Source: a bacterium (GTDB taxonomy: Bacteria; Patescibacteriota; Minisyncoccia; Phycocordibacterales; UBA12088). From it: a stretch of DNA of 64,000 nucleotides. Below the pieces are notes generated by a model, which was not told where the DNA came from, did not search any database, and saw only the letters and a program-made list of their open reading frames with translations. Both the position numbers and the translations under genes were made by a program. The stretch covers positions 7,127 through 71,126 of the forward strand of contig QKEV01000011.1 in assembly GCA_003252295.1 (NCBI GenBank), written 5' to 3'. The number at the start of each line of letters is the position of its first letter. Positions within the stretch are counted from its first letter, which is position 1. Positions 8,849 to 14,337 of the stretch are shown piece after piece.

Positions 8849-9514
8849 CTACCACTGTATTTCAGTTTCTTGATGTTCCTTGAGGTATGTATTTGCCTTG
8901 CTGAAGTGACGACACCCAAAGAAACCACTGTTTGCACTGTATGGTGACGGATGTGCCGCCTCAAGCACGAGATGCTTTTCTCGGTCTATGAACTCACCTT
9001 TCCTCTTTGCGTAGTTACCCCAGAGCATGAAAATGAGATGCTCTCGCTCATCATTGAGCTTCTGTATTACTACATCGGTAAATGCTTCCCATCCTTTTCC
9101 CTGATGACTTCCCGGCTGACTGGCACGCACGGTGAGTGTTGCATTCAAGAGGAGCACTCCCTGTTGTGCCCATTTTTCCAGGTTGCCACTCTCAGGCATC
9201 TCAACCCCAAGATCACTCTTGAGCTCTTTGTAGATGTTCTGGAGCGAGGGCGGCATACGCACTCCTTCCGGTACCGAGAAGGACAAACCATGTGCCTGTC
9301 CTGCACCATGGTATGGATCCTGTCCAAGGATCACCACTTTCACCTTTTCAAAGGGGCACAGATCAAATGCATTGAAAATATGTTTAGGTGCAGGGTACAC
9401 CTTTGCAGTCTTATACTCATCTTTCACAAAAGCGGACACCTTCTCCCAAGTATCCGTTGCAAACACATCAGCAAGCTCCCTTTTCCATGATGCTTCTATA
9501 CGTACGTCGGTCAT
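8849..9514 (-). CDS. ung: Uracil-DNA glycosylase (family 1)
   Basis: GQDPYHG water-activating loop, HPSP motif, UNG-like length. Confidence 0.9.
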   Translation of the reverse strand: MTDVRIEASWKRELADVFATDTWEKVSAFVKDEYKTAKVYPAPKHIFNAFDLCPFEKVKVVILGQDPYHGAGQAHGLSFSVPEGVRMPPSLQNIYKELKSDLGVEMPESGNLEKWAQQGVLLLNATLTVRASQPGSHQGKGWEAFTDVVIQKLNDEREHLIFMLWGNYAKRKGEFIDREKHLVLEAAHPSPYSANSGFFGCRHFSKANTYLKEHQETEIQW

Positions 9515-10127: not shown

Positions 10128-10167
10128 ACATGCACTATAGCATCCATATGATAAACCATATGATTTA

Positions 10168-11436
10168 TCATATGGATAATTTTACCTGAGTAATATCACT
10201 CCATCTTGTGGTGTAGCGTGGTGACATGTGTGCACGCTTTGAACGCCAGGTGTTTTTCCCGAGCTCAGCAGCAGTCTGGACTGTGAGACCGTACTCACCC
10301 TGTAGCATGTCGAGTGTATCCATGAGCTTACTGTTCTCATCTACCTCTTCGGCAAACAGTGTCGCTTTGGGCTGTGCGCCAACACGAACAATATCATGTA
10401 CAGCAACTCCAGCTTTCACGTACGCAACATCAGACCTATACAAGTACTCCAGTATCCTCTCTGCAACCTCCACTATAGTGAGCGTGTTGCTGGTATGGAC
10501 CGAAAGAATCTCAAAGTGGGAAAGATTCTTTGTTTGACCATACCCTTTTGCCCGCACGAACACCGATACACGTTTTGCTACACAATCCTCTGCGCGTAGC
10601 ATCTCTGCTGCAGCACGAGCATGACGAGCAACAGCTGAACACACCTCATGTTTCTCTTGTACAGCAGTACCAAATGACTGTGAGTTCATGAGTGACTTAC
10701 GCACCTCATTACTCTCCCCGATAGAAAAGTATTGCTTGCCACTGAGCTCCTGTACCGTGCGCCCTAGTCCCACGTGCACACTCCTCCCAGCATCACTCTT
10801 CACATACTCCACAAGATCATGAGCAGTTGCTATACCTAAACGTTCCAACTGTGGTGCACCACGTCGTCCGACACCCCACACATCTGCAACAGCAGTATCT
10901 CTAAGCACATCCTGTACAGCACCTTGTTCAATGAGTACTGGAAAGTGTCGCTTCTGGTAACTCGGCTTCATGGTATGCGCTGACACTTTTGCTAGAGTCT
11001 TTGTGCTACCTATACCAATAGTTACTGGTACACCTACCTCCTTGAGCACAACTTGTCGTATCTTCTTAGCTTGTGAGCACAGTATCCCACCATCTCTACA
11101 CTCAAGTACAAGAAAGGCCTCATCAATCGAGTATGTTTCGACCGTATCAGAAAAACGGCGTAGTACACTCATGACACGCTTCGATACATCACGGTACAGT
11201 TCGAAGTTTGAGGAAAACACCGCAACATCTTCACGCTTGCACACATCACGGACCATAAAGAATGGTACCCCCATAGAAATACCAAGCTGCTTCACCTCTT
11301 GTGAACGCGAGATCACGCAACCATCGTTACTCGAGAGCACGAGAACCGGGTGTGTACGCAGGTCAGGACGAAAGAGCCGTTCACACGACACAAAGAAGTT
11401 GTCACAATCAACAAGTGCTATCACTGACTTCTTCAT
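10168..11436 (-). CDS. umuC: Y-family translesion DNA polymerase, UmuC-like
   Basis: N-terminal ALVDCDNFFVSCERLFRPDL, YSIDEAF, and the C-terminal MSPRYTTRWSD tail align closely with E. coli UmuC. Confidence 0.9.
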   Translation of the reverse strand: MKKSVIALVDCDNFFVSCERLFRPDLRTHPVLVLSSNDGCVISRSQEVKQLGISMGVPFFMVRDVCKREDVAVFSSNFELYRDVSKRVMSVLRRFSDTVETYSIDEAFLVLECRDGGILCSQAKKIRQVVLKEVGVPVTIGIGSTKTLAKVSAHTMKPSYQKRHFPVLIEQGAVQDVLRDTAVADVWGVGRRGAPQLERLGIATAHDLVEYVKSDAGRSVHVGLGRTVQELSGKQYFSIGESNEVRKSLMNSQSFGTAVQEKHEVCSAVARHARAAAEMLRAEDCVAKRVSVFVRAKGYGQTKNLSHFEILSVHTSNTLTIVEVAERILEYLYRSDVAYVKAGVAVHDIVRVGAQPKATLFAEEVDENSKLMDTLDMLQGEYGLTVQTAAELGKNTWRSKRAHMSPRYTTRWSDITQVKLSI

Positions 11437-11533: not shown

Positions 11534-12031
11534 CTAAAGTCTACGGCTAAGAGCGGAAACAACACCCCAGATGTATACCCCATCACCATCACACACCTCC
11601 TGCTTTACCGCATCTCCCACACCACACACCAAAAACTGTCTACCTTCATGCTCAGTGTAGCGACAAAGAGAAAATGCACCTTCACGTACCGCTAAGACGA
11701 GGTTACCGAGAACAGGAGTGAGTGCTCTATCGATAGTGAGTATGTCACCCTGCATAACACCAAGAAACTTGTTCTCCTCTATCTTTACTGGACCATCAGG
11801 ATTACCCACTTCAACAAAGTAGGTTGCTGCAGGGTGCTGTACGAACAACTTATCTAGAGAGAGAGCGTTCTTGTAACCATCAGACATTGCATAGTCCGCA
11901 CTCTCCTCAAGTGCATAGCGACATGCAGCACACACCACCTCACCACCATTGCCATGCACATGCTTGTCCTTACTAAGTGACGTACGTACAAAAGATACTG
12001 GTTTCATAGTTTTATGTTCTTGTTTTTCCAT
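11534..12031 (-). CDS. umuD: UmuD-like S24-fold protein; catalytic dyad apparently degenerate
   Basis: QHPAATYFVEV aligns with UmuD QHPSATYFVKA. Directly upstream of umuC. By-eye alignment places GNPDG where GDSM is expected and REGAFSLCRY where GEFTVKKL is expected. Confidence 0.7.
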   Translation of the reverse strand: MEKQEHKTMKPVSFVRTSLSKDKHVHGNGGEVVCAACRYALEESADYAMSDGYKNALSLDKLFVQHPAATYFVEVGNPDGPVKIEENKFLGVMQGDILTIDRALTPVLGNLVLAVREGAFSLCRYTEHEGRQFLVCGVGDAVKQEVCDGDGVYIWGVVSALSRRL

Positions 12032-12075: not shown

Positions 12076-12642
12076 TTATGAGTATGTTCTAATAACACTT
12101 CGCACCACACCGCCAATCTCCAGAGACTGCTCAGGCCACAGGTCATCATAATCTTCGTTTGCCGCCTCGAGGTACCTCTTTCCTTTCTTCTCTCGTAAGT
12201 ATTTAACTGTCCATTCGCCATCAAGGTTTGCTGCTACAATATCTCCCACCCGCGCAGTCGATGTTTTCTCCACCAAGAGAAGATCACCCTCATGTATGCC
12301 GGCATCTATCATGGAGAGTCCTTTCACACGCAAGAGGTACATGTTCTCTTTTTTACCAAGTAAGAGGTCATCTATAGCAATGTGGTCGAGTGACATCTCT
12401 TCTGCAGGTGAAGGGAAACCTGCCTCAATGTATCCAAGAAGCGGCACCTCACTCTCAAGAGCAAGTGGCACCAAACGCCCCTGATTATCACGTTCTACCA
12501 TTCCAGCATCGACAAGTTTCTGTACCACCTTAGCAACAGCATTCTTAGAGGCAAAACCAAAGAGGGTGCACATCTCACTGTATCCAGGCATCCTCTTGTG
12601 GTTCTTGTAGAACGTTTTGAGTAGGTCTCTGTAGTGCTCCAT
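12076..12642 (-). CDS. lexA: LexA repressor
   Basis: N-terminal winged HTH, AG cleavage site (EAGFPSPA), GLSM Ser nucleophile, EWTVKYL Lys. Confidence 0.9.
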   Translation of the reverse strand: MEHYRDLLKTFYKNHKRMPGYSEMCTLFGFASKNAVAKVVQKLVDAGMVERDNQGRLVPLALESEVPLLGYIEAGFPSPAEEMSLDHIAIDDLLLGKKENMYLLRVKGLSMIDAGIHEGDLLLVEKTSTARVGDIVAANLDGEWTVKYLREKKGKRYLEAANEDYDDLWPEQSLEIGGVVRSVIRTYS

Positions 12643-12650
12643 ACCGTATA

Positions 12651-12914
12651 CTATGCAAAGTTCCAGTTAAAGAGTCGTGTAGAGACACGTTGGTTGAGAC
12701 TCTTACGGACAGGACTTTTTCCGAAACGAGAGCGTCGGAAGATCTGCAAGGTTGTGTCTTCCTGTACACCCAAGCGCTGGAGTGCGCTGAGGAGGTCTCG
12801 GTGACGACGTGCTTCTTTTTCATATGAACAACCCCGTACGATCTTGGTATCTATCACAGTATTAAGCTTTTTTAGCTCCCTGTTAAGTTCTTTGAGAAGT
12901 GTTGTTTTGTTCAT
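12651..12914 (-). CDS. Hypothetical basic protein co-transcribed with lexA (87 aa if started at Met68)
   Basis: The ORF ends 8 nt before the lexA ATG. The ORF track's longest form (12651..13115) would contain the LexA-box-like palindrome, so the Met68 start just downstream of the box is preferred. Confidence 0.35.
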   Translation of the reverse strand: MNKTTLLKELNRELKKLNTVIDTKIVRGCSYEKEARRHRDLLSALQRLGVQEDTTLQIFRRSRFGKSPVRKSLNQRVSTRLFNWNFA

Positions 12915-12948
12915 AAGCCCTTTAGTTAATGAATATGTGTACAGTATA

Positions 12949-12964
12949 AGTGAACGTTCGTTCA
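12949..12964 (-). promoter_or_regulatory. Candidate LexA operator (Cheo-box-like GAAC-N4-GTTC palindrome)
   Basis: GTGAACGTTCGTTCAC is a perfect 6-bp inverted repeat with a 4-nt spacer, about 35 nt upstream of the Met68 start of the ORF that precedes lexA. Confidence 0.4.
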
Positions 12965-13041
12965 CCGTCAACTTTTTTCCCCGCTTTACCCTCTTTACGG
13001 TACGCATTTTTCTCACTGTCAAACTTATCGACATACACCCC

Positions 13042-13326: not shown

Positions 13327-14337
13327 ATGGAATATGAAAAATTTTCTGCGCTGCAGATTGAATACTCTTCAAGATGCAATATGCAGGATGTATGCAAGCA
13401 TTGCTATGGAGCAACAGGTATTCATGAAGCAGAAAAGACGATACCAGATAAAGTGATGGAGGTCATACTTGCTGAAGCAAAATACATTGCGTCTTCTATC
13501 ACCATTACCGGAGGTGAACCAGCAACATTTCCTCACATGACGAGAAGGATTTGCAATGAGTCAGGGCTTCCGGTTTTTGTTATGACCAACGGAATGAAGC
13601 TCATTGAAGGTATTACGCCAGCTAGCGTACTTTTTTCCTTGGATGCAAATGATGCACGTCCAGGTATCAACCCAGACACCATACTCAAAAATGTTCTTGG
13701 TTACAATTGCAACCTAGCATGCAATACAGTACTCACGAGTGATCTGGACCTGTTGTCGTACTTCGAAAAAATGAAAGCGCTCAACAAGAAATTGCTTTCA
13801 CGAGGACAGCATTTGAGAGAGTGGAAACTTGGTTTTGTTATAGACAGAGGGCGAGCAACGAAACATAGAAACCTGTTCCCCGATATCGATGTCGTATTTA
13901 AACAACTACGGCAGCTACTCATCACCTATTTCGAAGACCCACCTTTTCACTTGGCAATTCGCGGCTTCCTGTACACAAAGTTTTTAACCGATGCATACTT
14001 GCAGTCAATAAAAAACTTTAAGCTTCAAGAAAAGCGAAACCCATGCCTCGACTGCTACGGCAGAGGTGAGATACTCACCGTAAACACGGAAGGACGTGTA
14101 CAGATGTGCACCGTACATCGTACTGTTTCCGAACCGATCACAGACAGTCTCATTGATGCCGTACTAAAGCTTCTACAACGGAATGAGTTCACTGCCCTCA
14201 CGTACAGAGATTGGTCTGAGTGTCACAGTTGTCGGTACTGGAACATTTGTGGCGGTGGTTGCCCATCACTTGCAGAAAACTACGGAGGTTCATGGACAGG
14301 AAAGGACACCTTTCAATGTACCATTATGGGAAAATAG
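13327..14337 (+). CDS. Radical SAM protein with C-terminal SPASM domain (peptide-maturase-like)
   Basis: N-terminal Cys triad CNMQDVCKHC (CX5CX2C, not the canonical CX3CX2C), the GGEP SAM-binding motif, and the C-terminal CLDC...C plus CHSCRYWNICGGGC (CX2CX5CX3C SPASM signature). Confidence 0.8.
   Translation: MEYEKFSALQIEYSSRCNMQDVCKHCYGATGIHEAEKTIPDKVMEVILAEAKYIASSITITGGEPATFPHMTRRICNESGLPVFVMTNGMKLIEGITPASVLFSLDANDARPGINPDTILKNVLGYNCNLACNTVLTSDLDLLSYFEKMKALNKKLLSRGQHLREWKLGFVIDRGRATKHRNLFPDIDVVFKQLRQLLITYFEDPPFHLAIRGFLYTKFLTDAYLQSIKNFKLQEKRNPCLDCYGRGEILTVNTEGRVQMCTVHRTVSEPITDSLIDAVLKLLQRNEFTALTYRDWSECHSCRYWNICGGGCPSLAENYGGSWTGKDTFQCTIMGK

What the first reader, a model, noticed from the sequence alone, without database searches (positions are those of the whole stretch)
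11534..12031. UmuD homologue apparently lacking the Ser/Lys autocleavage dyad
Seen in sequence:
- The protein sits in the canonical umuD position upstream of umuC and shares QHPAATYFV with UmuD.
- Where S24 peptidases carry G-D-S-M it reads VGNPDGPV.
- Where the general-base Lys lies (GEFTVKKL in E. coli) it reads GAFSLCRY.
- LexA next door retains both (GLSM, EWTVKYL).

Inference: a non-cleavable UmuD-like accessory subunit, either constitutively UmuD'-like or regulated differently. This would change how translesion synthesis is licensed in this organism. The alignment is by eye, so residue assignment needs confirmation.
Basis: partly seen in the sequence, partly recalled or inferred. Interest (0 to 1): 0.6.

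Follow-up and report, generated by a model that had tools for sequence, protein, structure and literature searches.

The report
Protease-dead UmuD partner of UmuC
A Patescibacteria (CPR) bacterium encodes, between lexA and umuC, a conserved UmuD-like protein that has lost the serine, the lysine and the cut site needed for self-cleavage. The textbook RecA-triggered UmuD-to-UmuD' activation step of error-prone DNA polymerase V therefore cannot operate here.

Summary
The ORF at 11534-12031 (-) is a UmuD descendant with an S24 fold; its likely true start is the ATG at 12007. Three independent alignments put Cys123 at the position of the general base Lys97. They put a serine-free, 7-residue-longer segment (G76-L90, GNPDGPVKIEENKFL) where S-G-D-S-M lies. 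The scissile Cys/Ala-Gly bond is also missing: the window protein reads Cys37-Arg38.

This is not decay. About 45 homologues, all from Patescibacteria where a source is named, share the losses. dN/dS is about 0.1. The gene sits in a conserved operon of SOS-box promoter, orf87, lexA, umuD*, umuC and a terminator. LexA keeps its Ala-Gly site, Ser and Lys. UmuC keeps its catalytic motifs and its UmuD'-binding tail.

Most likely it is a non-proteolytic accessory subunit of a Pol V-like polymerase. Licensing would then rest on LexA derepression, and presumably on RecA binding to UmuC, not on UmuD cleavage.

Dyad loss is not unique to this family. Chitinophagaceae and Rhodothermales UmuDs next to umuC carry Ser->Ala and Lys->Arg. 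I found no paper describing either case. I rate it a new variant of a known kind, of moderate interest. How the retained N-terminal arm (MKxVSFVRT, CxxC) works remains open.

The parts
11534..12031 (-). umuD* ORF as listed (165 aa). The probable real CDS is 11534-12007 (157 aa, starting MKPVSFVRT).
   Evidence: 33 of 35 homologues start at MKxVSF
11981..12007 (-). Conserved extreme N-terminus M9-T17 (MKPVSFVRT). It is the most conserved element of the otherwise variable arm, which is predicted to be disordered.
   Evidence: also kept in short-arm members P0040, P0041 and P0046; arm pLDDT <50
11921..11932 (-). CxxC motif (C34-A-A-C37) at about the place of the UmuD Cys24-Gly25 cleavage site. 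It is followed here by Arg38 (no scissile bond); most relatives have CxxC-G.
11762..11806 (-). G76-L90 (GNPDGPVKIEENKFL). This serine-free segment, 7 residues longer, replaces S-G-D-S-M-I-D-G of UmuD and ends in the family motif ENxFLGV.
   Evidence: pLDDT about 90
11663..11665 (-). Cys123 codon (tgt) at the position of the general base Lys97 of UmuD, within the invariant context L-C-R-[YF]-T-E-H-x-G.
   Evidence: codon read directly
11624..11626 (-). Cys136 codon. By hairpin register around the E129-G130 turn it is the cross-strand neighbour of Cys123. In the family, Cys136 never occurs without Cys123.
   Evidence: strands 119-128 and 131-135; 29 both, 8 C123 only, 0 C136 only, 11 neither
10168..11436 (-). 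umuC-like Y-family polymerase (422 aa). It has the catalytic motifs DCDNFF and SIDEAF, a full-length match to the UmuC profile, and a DUF4113 C-terminal tail that runs 4 residues past the profile end.
12076..12642 (-). lexA (188 aa) with an intact Ala-Gly site, Ser (GLSM) and Lys (TVKYL).
   Evidence: (TIGR00498, 118 bits, above its cutoff of 110.95)
12651..12914 (-). orf87, a conserved small helical protein of unknown function and the first gene of the operon.
12943..12971 (-). Promoter-like site TTGACG-17 nt-TATACT. A perfect 16-nt palindrome GTGAACGAACGTTCAC (12950-12965; core GAAC-N4-GTTC at 12952-12963) lies in the spacer and is the predicted LexA box.
   Evidence: same architecture in 8 of 8 related loci
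10142..10177 (.). 14-bp inverted repeat overlapping the umuC stop codon; terminator-like, and the likely end of the operon.

Best explanation
umuD* encodes a UmuD-derived protein with an S24 fold that can no longer cut itself. The Ser nucleophile region has been replaced by a longer, conserved, serine-free loop (…ENxFLGV). The general-base Lys is a Cys. The Cys/Ala-Gly scissile bond is gone.

The gene is kept under purifying selection as the third gene of a LexA-repressed operon: SOS-box promoter, orf87, lexA, umuD*, umuC.

The most likely mechanism is as follows:
1. DNA damage leads to RecA*-stimulated cleavage of the still-canonical LexA.
2. The operon is then transcribed.
3. [quoted passage not shown]
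4. It thereby serves directly as the small subunit of a Pol V-like translesion polymerase, with no UmuD->UmuD' processing step.

Licensing of mutagenic synthesis would then rest on transcription, and presumably on RecA binding to UmuC, rather than on a second proteolytic checkpoint.

Shown: loss of the catalytic and cleavage determinants, fold retention, selection, synteny, and the promoter/box architecture.
Inferred: binding to UmuC, activity without processing, and any role of the conserved free N-terminus (MKxVSFVRT) as the arm that reaches into UmuC.
For: - Dyad and scissile-bond loss.
- Fold: AF2 core pLDDT >90. Foldseek top hits are UmuD' 1ay9, 8gmt and 1umu (E about 1e-5), followed by LexA C-terminal domains.
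- UmuD descent rather than a LexA duplicate: hhalign score 209.6 (E 2.7e-35) against UmuD, versus 60.2 (E 4e-9) against the cognate LexA.
- Selection: dN/dS 0.09-0.18 with saturated dS. Invariant motifs persist across 45-82% identical homologues.
- Synteny: lexA-umuD*-umuC in L001-L006, L008, L011, L016, L017, L019 and L020.
- UmuC: full-length match to the UmuC profile (1.5e-93) plus the DUF4113 tail; catalytic motifs read directly.
- Regulation: the TTGACG-box-TATACT promoter is conserved in 8 of 8 loci. LexA is canonical.
- Precedent that small subunits work through a tail-binding core plus a free N-terminal arm: the Pol V model in PMC11791011 and YqjX/YolD in PMC12926913.
- Independent recurrence: dyad-less UmuDs sit directly upstream of umuC in Rhodothermales and Chitinophagaceae.
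Against: - No experiment and no complex model.
- In E. coli, non-cleavable UmuD (S60A) blocks mutagenesis (PMC3901139). An uncleaved arm could therefore be inhibitory rather than permissive.
- In the Pol V model, the UmuC C-terminal carboxylate docks on UmuD' S36/T71/K73. By my +24 mapping these are S60/T95/K97 of UmuD, the very residues lost here. Tail binding must therefore differ.
- Two of 13 loci (L012, L021) have lexA-umuD* without an adjacent umuC.
- The arm is modelled with low confidence, so its behaviour is unknown.
- recA is not in the window.
Confidence: 0.6

Rival explanations
1. Permanent brake. UmuD* mimics uncleaved UmuD2, the checkpoint or 'polymerase manager' form. It holds UmuC inactive or slows replication until UmuD* or its arm is removed by a housekeeping protease (Lon/ClpXP type). 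The conserved N-terminus would act as the degron.
For: The full N-terminal arm is retained, with a conserved end motif. In E. coli the uncleaved form inhibits mutagenesis, and the arm carries protease-recognition and partner sites (PMC3901139 and PMC5342242).
Against: Streamlined genomes would be unlikely to keep a polymerase together with a constitutive inhibitor in one operon under strong purifying selection. The cleft the arm would occupy has been remodelled. No degron was tested.
Confidence: 0.2
2. Cysteine-based switch. The former active site has become a metal or redox site. Cys123 (at the Lys97 position) and its cross-strand neighbour Cys136, together with the arm's CxxC (at the old cleavage-site position), bind Zn or form disulfides. 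This would reversibly tether the arm and replace irreversible proteolysis.
For: There are four conserved Cys. Cys136 is never present without Cys123 (29 both, 8 C123 only, 0 C136 only, 11 neither). The hairpin register pairs residues 123 and 136. The CxxC lies about 20 residues before the LSLD motif, against 16 for Cys24 in UmuD.
Against: CxxC and Cys123 are not co-conserved: the five members that have lost Cys123 and Cys136 keep CxxC, and several members keep both of those Cys without CxxC. AF2 does not dock the arm (pLDDT <50). The sequences are related, so the counts are not independent. I could not inspect model coordinates.
Confidence: 0.1
3. LexA/RecA* modulator. UmuD* acts as a non-cleavable decoy that heterodimerises with LexA or occupies the RecA* groove. 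It would tune SOS induction rather than serve UmuC.
For: It always lies directly after lexA (13 of 13 loci where the upstream side is visible). It persists next to lexA in two loci that lack an adjacent umuC. UmuD and LexA bind the same RecA filament groove (PDB 8gmt/8gms).
Against: It is far closer to UmuD than to its own LexA. umuC follows it in 9 of 11 loci where the downstream side is visible. UmuC retains the UmuD'-binding tail.
Confidence: 0.07
4. Trans-cleavage. UmuD* is still processed at the arm, but by another S24 active site such as the neighbouring LexA or a partner protease. The precedent is intermolecular cleavage within UmuD dimers.
For: Most family members keep Cys-Gly after the CxxC, i.e. 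a UmuD-type scissile dipeptide.
Against: The window protein and its subclade (P0001-P0008, P0023, P0028, P0033) read Cys-Arg, and the window protein's arm has no A-G or C-G. Short-arm members lack the site altogether. The GFPSP motif that follows the cut in UmuD is absent.
Confidence: 0.04
5. A decaying pseudogene or an annotation artefact.
For: Pfam S24 score is below the gathering threshold (15 vs 23.3 bits), and the NCBIfam UmuD score is below its cutoff.
Against: The ORF is intact in all loci. dN/dS is about 0.1. There are 17 invariant columns across 34 sequences. The core model is confident.
Confidence: 0.01

Closest known systems
E. coli UmuD / UmuD' (Pol V accessory subunit; PDB 1AY9, 1UMU, 8GMT)
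   Same: Same fold and clear homology (hhalign 99.9%). Shared motifs are HPAATYFV, GDxLxVDR and WGVV. It sits upstream of umuC, is under LexA control, and its partner UmuC has the DUF4113 tail.
   Different: It has no Ser60, no Lys97 and no Cys24-Gly25, and it lacks the GFPSP arm motif. The loop replacing SGDSM is 7 residues longer. It has a new conserved N-terminus and a CxxC. It scores below the Pfam and NCBIfam cutoffs.
Phage P1 HumD (NCBIfam NF051876; a natural UmuD'-sized homologue that needs no cleavage)
   Same: It is a UmuD-family cofactor that would work without a self-cleavage step. There is a weak profile match (E 1e-9).
   Different: HumD bypasses cleavage by lacking the N-terminal peptide. 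The protein here keeps an arm of about 50 residues and has instead lost the catalytic machinery. It scores 38 bits against a cutoff of 120. That HumD is a truncated analogue is from my own knowledge of the literature; the papers listed were not read.
Bacillus YolD/YqjX small subunits of YqjW/UvrX polymerases
   Same: They are non-proteolytic small partners of UmuC-like polymerases, with a beta-core plus an unstructured N-terminal arm proposed to insert into the polymerase (PMC6511836 and PMC12926913).
   Different: They are a different family (PF08863). There is no Pfam hit here and no sequence similarity in the arm.
Dyad-less UmuD homologues of Bacteroidota/Rhodothermota found here (GDAM / VRR type)
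   Same: They lack the Ser and Lys and sit directly upstream of a umuC with a DUF4113 tail.
   Different: Those have simple substitutions (S->A, K->R, A/C-G -> T/V-G). They keep the GFPSP-like arm, have no loop insertion and still pass the Pfam S24 threshold. They represent an independent loss.
Acinetobacter UmuDAb
   Same: It is a UmuD relative with a longer N-terminus that has been recruited to a non-standard role in the SOS response (PMC4807011).
   Different: UmuDAb has a DNA-binding N-terminal domain, still self-cleaves and replaces LexA. Here LexA is present, the arm is predicted to be disordered, and cleavage determinants are absent.
Catalytically inactive clan-SF homologues such as Streptococcus SipA (PDB 4N31)
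   Same: It is a precedent for a Ser/Lys peptidase fold reused as a non-catalytic scaffold. It appears as a weak structural match (rank 45).
   Different: It belongs to the S26 family and works in pilus assembly, so there is no functional relation.

Membership tests
Peptidase S24 / UmuD (PF00717; NCBIfam NF007621) | LexA/UmuD-type beta fold of the C-terminal domain | tested here: met
   AF2 core pLDDT >90. Foldseek top hits are UmuD' and LexA C-terminal domains at probability 1.00. hhalign 99.9% against canonical UmuDs.
Peptidase S24 / UmuD (PF00717; NCBIfam NF007621) | Score above the curated family thresholds | tested here: not met
   Pfam 15.0 bits vs 23.3. NF007621 46.7 bits vs 110.
Peptidase S24 / UmuD (PF00717; NCBIfam NF007621) | Nucleophilic Ser in G-D-S-M (UmuD Ser60) | tested here: not met
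   It aligns to Val82 or Gly80. The segment G76-L90 has no Ser. It is absent in all family members.
Peptidase S24 / UmuD (PF00717; NCBIfam NF007621) | General-base Lys (UmuD Lys97) | tested here: not met
   Cys123 in an ungapped alignment block. In the family the position is C, S, G, A or R, never K.
Peptidase S24 / UmuD (PF00717; NCBIfam NF007621) | Scissile Cys/Ala-Gly bond in the N-terminal arm | tested here: not met
   The window protein reads C37-R38, and its arm has no A-G or C-G. Most other family members do keep C-G.
Peptidase S24 / UmuD (PF00717; NCBIfam NF007621) | RecA*-stimulated or alkaline self-cleavage | not testable with these tools
   Needs purified protein. It is predicted negative from the three missing determinants.
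Pol V-type operon (umuDC under LexA) | Small-subunit gene immediately upstream of a UmuC with a C-terminal UmuD'-binding tail (DUF4113) | tested here: met
   The arrangement is conserved in related loci.
Pol V-type operon (umuDC under LexA) | LexA box in the promoter | tested here: met
   GAAC-N4-GTTC lies between the -35 and -10 hexamers, and the architecture is conserved in 8 of 8 loci. Actual binding is not testable here.
Pol V-type operon (umuDC under LexA) | Physical UmuD'2-UmuC complex and dependence of translesion synthesis on the small subunit | not testable with these tools
No experiment was possible.
HumD-type pre-truncated UmuD' (NF051876) | No N-terminal peptide before the UmuD' start, and a score above the cutoff | tested here: not met
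   An arm of about 50 residues precedes the core. Score is 38.4 bits vs 120.
YolD/YqjX (PF08863) | Match to the YolD profile | tested here: not met
   No Pfam hit other than the weak S24 match at E <= 1.
UmuDAb-type repressor | DNA-binding N-terminal domain plus retained self-cleavage | tested here: not met
   No HTH or other domain hit. The arm is predicted to be disordered. The dyad is absent.

The most novel reading that the evidence does not exclude
The dead active site has been rebuilt as a cysteine-based metal or redox site. Cys123 replaces the general base, Cys136 lies across the hairpin from it, and the arm's CxxC sits where the cleavage site used to be. This site would reversibly clamp the N-terminal arm onto the core. 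Irreversible RecA*-driven proteolysis would thus have been replaced by a reversible Zn or thiol switch that licenses a Pol V-like polymerase.
Probability: 0.08. Interest if true: 0.8.

Novelty: new variant of a known kind. Interest (0 to 1): 0.5.

Why it matters
UmuD self-cleavage is the textbook second checkpoint that delays mutagenic Pol V after SOS induction. Here a whole clade of reduced-genome bacteria keeps the UmuD fold, its arm and its UmuC partner, but has discarded the nucleophile, the base and the scissile bond. Bacteroidota UmuDs have done something similar by point substitutions.

If these proteins still support translesion synthesis, two conclusions follow:
- The cofactor role of UmuD is separable from proteolysis even when the arm is present.
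- The timing of mutagenesis in these lineages is set differently, by transcription only or by some other switch.

There is also a practical consequence. Current annotation ('autoproteolytic subunit') is wrong for these proteins. The systems also offer natural experiments on what the arm and the former active-site cleft do in the Pol V complex.

Tried and rejected
There is therefore no model of the complex.
Only the hairpin register could be used.
- An Rfam scan of the window found nothing.
- orf87 has no Pfam or NCBIfam family and only 6 homologues. It is predicted as a helical hairpin with no significant fold match.
- Literature searches for non-cleavable or inactive UmuD homologues found no description. 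The one paper on the Patescibacteria SOS network (Sanchez-Osuna et al. 2017) is not held, so I cannot exclude that it mentions this gene.
- The idea that umuD* is a recent duplicate of the neighbouring LexA C-terminal domain was rejected (hhalign score 60 vs 210).
- The pseudogene idea was rejected.
- A Cys123/His128 catalytic pair was considered. It was set aside because the two residues lie five positions apart on one strand.
- The genome and metagenome scans used a single peptide pattern and returned few loci, so the family's size is better judged (13 clusters at E <= 1e-30).

Full report
**What is there.** The finding's ORF (11534..12031, minus strand, 165 aa) is the third of four co-directional genes:
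- a small ORF (12651..12914, 87 aa);
- lexA (12076..12642);
- the UmuD-like gene, here called umuD*;
- a 422-aa Y-family polymerase gene (10168..11436).

LexA passes the curated TIGR00498 threshold. The polymerase matches the UmuC profile over its full length (E 1.5e-93) and carries IMS, IMS_C and the C-terminal DUF4113 domain. The catalytic motifs DCDNFF and SIDEAF can be read directly in its sequence. umuD* itself scores only 15 bits on Pfam Peptidase_S24 (threshold 23.3) and 46.7 bits on the NCBIfam UmuD model (cutoff 110).

**Checking the observation.** phmmer against all PDB sequences returns E. coli UmuD/UmuD' as the best hits (E 2e-7). It aligns QHPAATYFV to QHPSATYFV, G-D-S-M to G-P-V-K, and FTVKKL to FSLCRY.

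A profile-profile comparison of 34 family members with 23 canonical UmuDs gives probability 99.9% and E 2.7e-35. Lys97 maps onto Cys123 in an ungapped block. Ser60 falls inside G76-L90 (GNPDGPVKIEENKFL), which is 7 residues longer than the UmuD loop and contains no serine. MAFFT alignments agree.

First, the scissile bond is gone too: the protein reads C37-R38 and has no A-G or C-G anywhere in the arm. Second, the real start is probably the ATG at 12007, because 33 of 35 close homologues begin MKxVSF.

**Fold.** An AlphaFold2 model built on the family alignment is confident for residues 66-165 (pLDDT above 90 for most blocks). It is not confident for the arm (pLDDT below 50 for most of residues 1-62). 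Foldseek against the PDB ranks UmuD' (1ay9, 8gmt, 1umu; E about 1e-5) first, then LexA C-terminal domains (TM-score 0.69-0.73 on the target, rmsd 2.6-2.8 Å). The family profile is much closer to UmuD (score 209.6) than to its own neighbouring LexA (score 60.2). It is therefore a UmuD descendant, not a recent duplicate of the LexA C-terminal domain.

**A family trait under selection.** A search of 5.8 billion proteins found 35 close homologues (45-82% identity). One of them comes from Parcubacteria GW2011_GWA2_43_11. An exhaustive HMM search of 1.84 billion cluster representatives found only 13 clusters at E <= 1e-30. Genome hits are labelled Candidatus Saccharibacteria MAGs.

Every member lacks the Ser and the Lys. 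The shared features are:
- the N-terminus MKxVSF[VI][RK]T;
- usually a CxxC;
- NPLSLDxL-HPAATYFV;
- the inserted loop ending ENxFLGV;
- GDILTIDRALTP;
- L-C-R-[YF]-T-E-H-x-G;
- WGVVSALSRRL.

Synonymous sites are saturated between the window gene and its relatives, and dN/dS is 0.09-0.18 where it can be computed. A pseudogene is excluded.

**Operon and regulation.** The order orf87, lexA, umuD*, umuC recurs in the related loci. The only GAAC-N4-GTTC in the 64-kb window (12952-12963) is the core of a perfect 16-nt palindrome. By itself one match is what chance predicts. However, it lies in the 17-nt spacer of a TTGACG/TATACT promoter-like site. The same -35/box/-10 arrangement is found about 100 nt upstream of the orf87 similarity region in 8 of 8 related loci. 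A 14-bp hairpin overlaps the umuC stop codon. Transcriptional SOS control through a canonical, cleavable LexA is therefore well supported, although binding itself was not tested.

**How it probably works.** The recent in-silico Pol V model (PMC11791011) describes two contacts. The last residues of UmuC add a beta-strand to one UmuD', with the terminal carboxylate contacting UmuD' S36, T71 and K73 and a salt bridge to E69. The free N-terminal end of the other UmuD' inserts near the UmuC active site. Adding 24 to those numbers gives S60, T95, K97 and E93 of full-length UmuD. All four residue identities match, but this mapping is my own inference. If it is right, the vacated protease cleft is the docking site for the UmuC tail. 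YqjX/YolD partners are likewise proposed to work through an unstructured N-terminal arm (PMC12926913).

In that framework the best reading is that UmuD* is a non-proteolytic small subunit:
- The beta-core is retained as a scaffold for dimerisation and tail binding.
- The cleft is remodelled.
- The protein is used as made.
- TLS licensing therefore depends on LexA derepression, and presumably on RecA binding to UmuC.

The strongly conserved native N-terminus is a candidate for the arm end that reaches into UmuC. It is kept even in short-arm members that lack the CxxC. This role is inference only.

One observation is consistent with this but rests on a small sample. UmuC tails paired with dyad-less UmuDs are longer. 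There are 10-13 residues after the YTT motif in seven family loci and 11 in two Ser->Ala/Lys->Arg loci. There are 9 in two canonical pairs, in one dyad-less Chitinophagaceae pair, and in E. coli (the E. coli tail is from memory). Relative to the end of the DUF4113 profile, the tails run +3 to +5 against +1.

**Rivals.**
- *Permanent UmuD2-like brake, released by general proteolysis.* This is plausible because non-cleavable E. coli UmuD blocks mutagenesis (PMC3901139). It is hard to reconcile with strong conservation of the operon in reduced genomes.
- *Cysteine switch.* This is suggested by Cys123 at the Lys position and by its cross-strand neighbour Cys136, which is never present without Cys123 (29 both, 8 C123 only, 0 C136 only, 11 neither). 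The CxxC at the old cleavage-site position also fits. However, CxxC and Cys123 are not co-conserved, and the arm is not docked in the model.
- *LexA/RecA* decoy.* This fits the invariable adjacency to lexA and two loci without an adjacent umuC. It does not fit the UmuD affinity or the usual pairing with umuC.
- *Trans-cleavage.* This is conceivable for members that keep C-G, but not for the window protein (C-R).

**Comparison with what is known, and novelty.** The protein works like, and descends from, UmuD. It nevertheless fails four defining tests of the autoproteolytic family: the score thresholds, the Ser, the Lys and the scissile bond. It is not a HumD-type pre-truncated UmuD', because the arm is present. 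It is not YolD or UmuDAb.

Dyad loss is not confined to this clade. Many of the UmuD-sized S24 proteins most similar to the family profile have non-canonical residues, with A/R the commonest combination. Examples sit directly upstream of umuC in a Rhodothermales MAG and another genome, and in a Chitinophagaceae MAG. Of the 120 closest relatives of the Chitinophagaceae protein, 118 read GDAM and T-G, and all 120 read VRR or IRR at the Lys position. Where NCBI names them, it calls them 'autoproteolytic subunit'.

I found no paper describing protease-dead UmuD homologues. The 2017 paper on the Patescibacteria SOS network could not be read.

**Verdict.** It is a real, conserved feature and a new variant of a known kind. 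Interest is moderate (0.5). The finding questions how general the UmuD cleavage checkpoint is and gives natural material for testing what the arm and the cleft do. It is also an expected kind of evolutionary outcome (a pseudo-protease used as a scaffold), and its mechanism is still unproven.

Noticed in passing
Among the 120 closest relatives of the Chitinophagaceae protein, 118 read GDAM and T-G. Where NCBI names them, it calls them 'autoproteolytic subunit'.
   Followed up: partly
window 12651-12914 (-): A conserved 87-aa ORF is the first gene of the SOS-box operon, ahead of lexA. It has only 6 database homologues; the two that carry a source name are from Patescibacteria/Parcubacteria. It is predicted as a helical hairpin plus a basic C-terminal helix. 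It has no Pfam or NCBIfam family and no fold match, so its function is unknown.
   Followed up: yes
window 10171-10206 (-) and the UmuC C-termini of L001, L004, L006, L008, L009, L010, L011, L019: UmuC tails paired with dyad-less UmuDs run 1-4 residues beyond the canonical 9 residues after the YTT motif, or +3 to +5 past the end of the DUF4113 profile against +1 in two canonical pairs. There is one exception (L014). The sample is small and the pattern is unexplained.
   Followed up: partly
window 13327-14337 (+): A 336-aa ORF with a Cys-rich N-terminal motif (CNMQDVCKHC) and a C-terminal Cys cluster looks like a radical-SAM/SPASM protein. It is transcribed divergently from the SOS operon, about 365 nt from the LexA box. 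A radical SAM protein is reported as part of the Gram-positive core SOS regulon (PMC7739468). I did not check it with a profile search.
   Followed up: no
L012:4469-7318 and L021:1092-3479: In two related loci umuD* follows lexA but no umuC is adjacent. In L012 a cytosine methyltransferase and a second ORF (possibly a restriction-modification pair) occupy that place. In L021 a ribosome-recycling-factor-like gene and a membrane-protease-like gene follow, and that UmuD* (P0034) has a degenerate N-terminus. The names given to these neighbouring genes come from reading the translations, not from a profile search.
   Followed up: partly
L019:1954-3500: One related locus has about 1.5 kb inserted between lexA and umuD*, with a second GAAC-N4-GTTC box at 2695. 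This suggests that umuD*-umuC can acquire its own SOS promoter.
   Followed up: no
window 1-64000: No Rfam family, not even a tRNA, reaches its gathering threshold in 64 kb. Local gene order (dnaK/grpE-sized ORFs, UDG at 8849-9514, nuclease) resembles that of Parcubacteria GW2011_GWA2_43_11.
   Followed up: no
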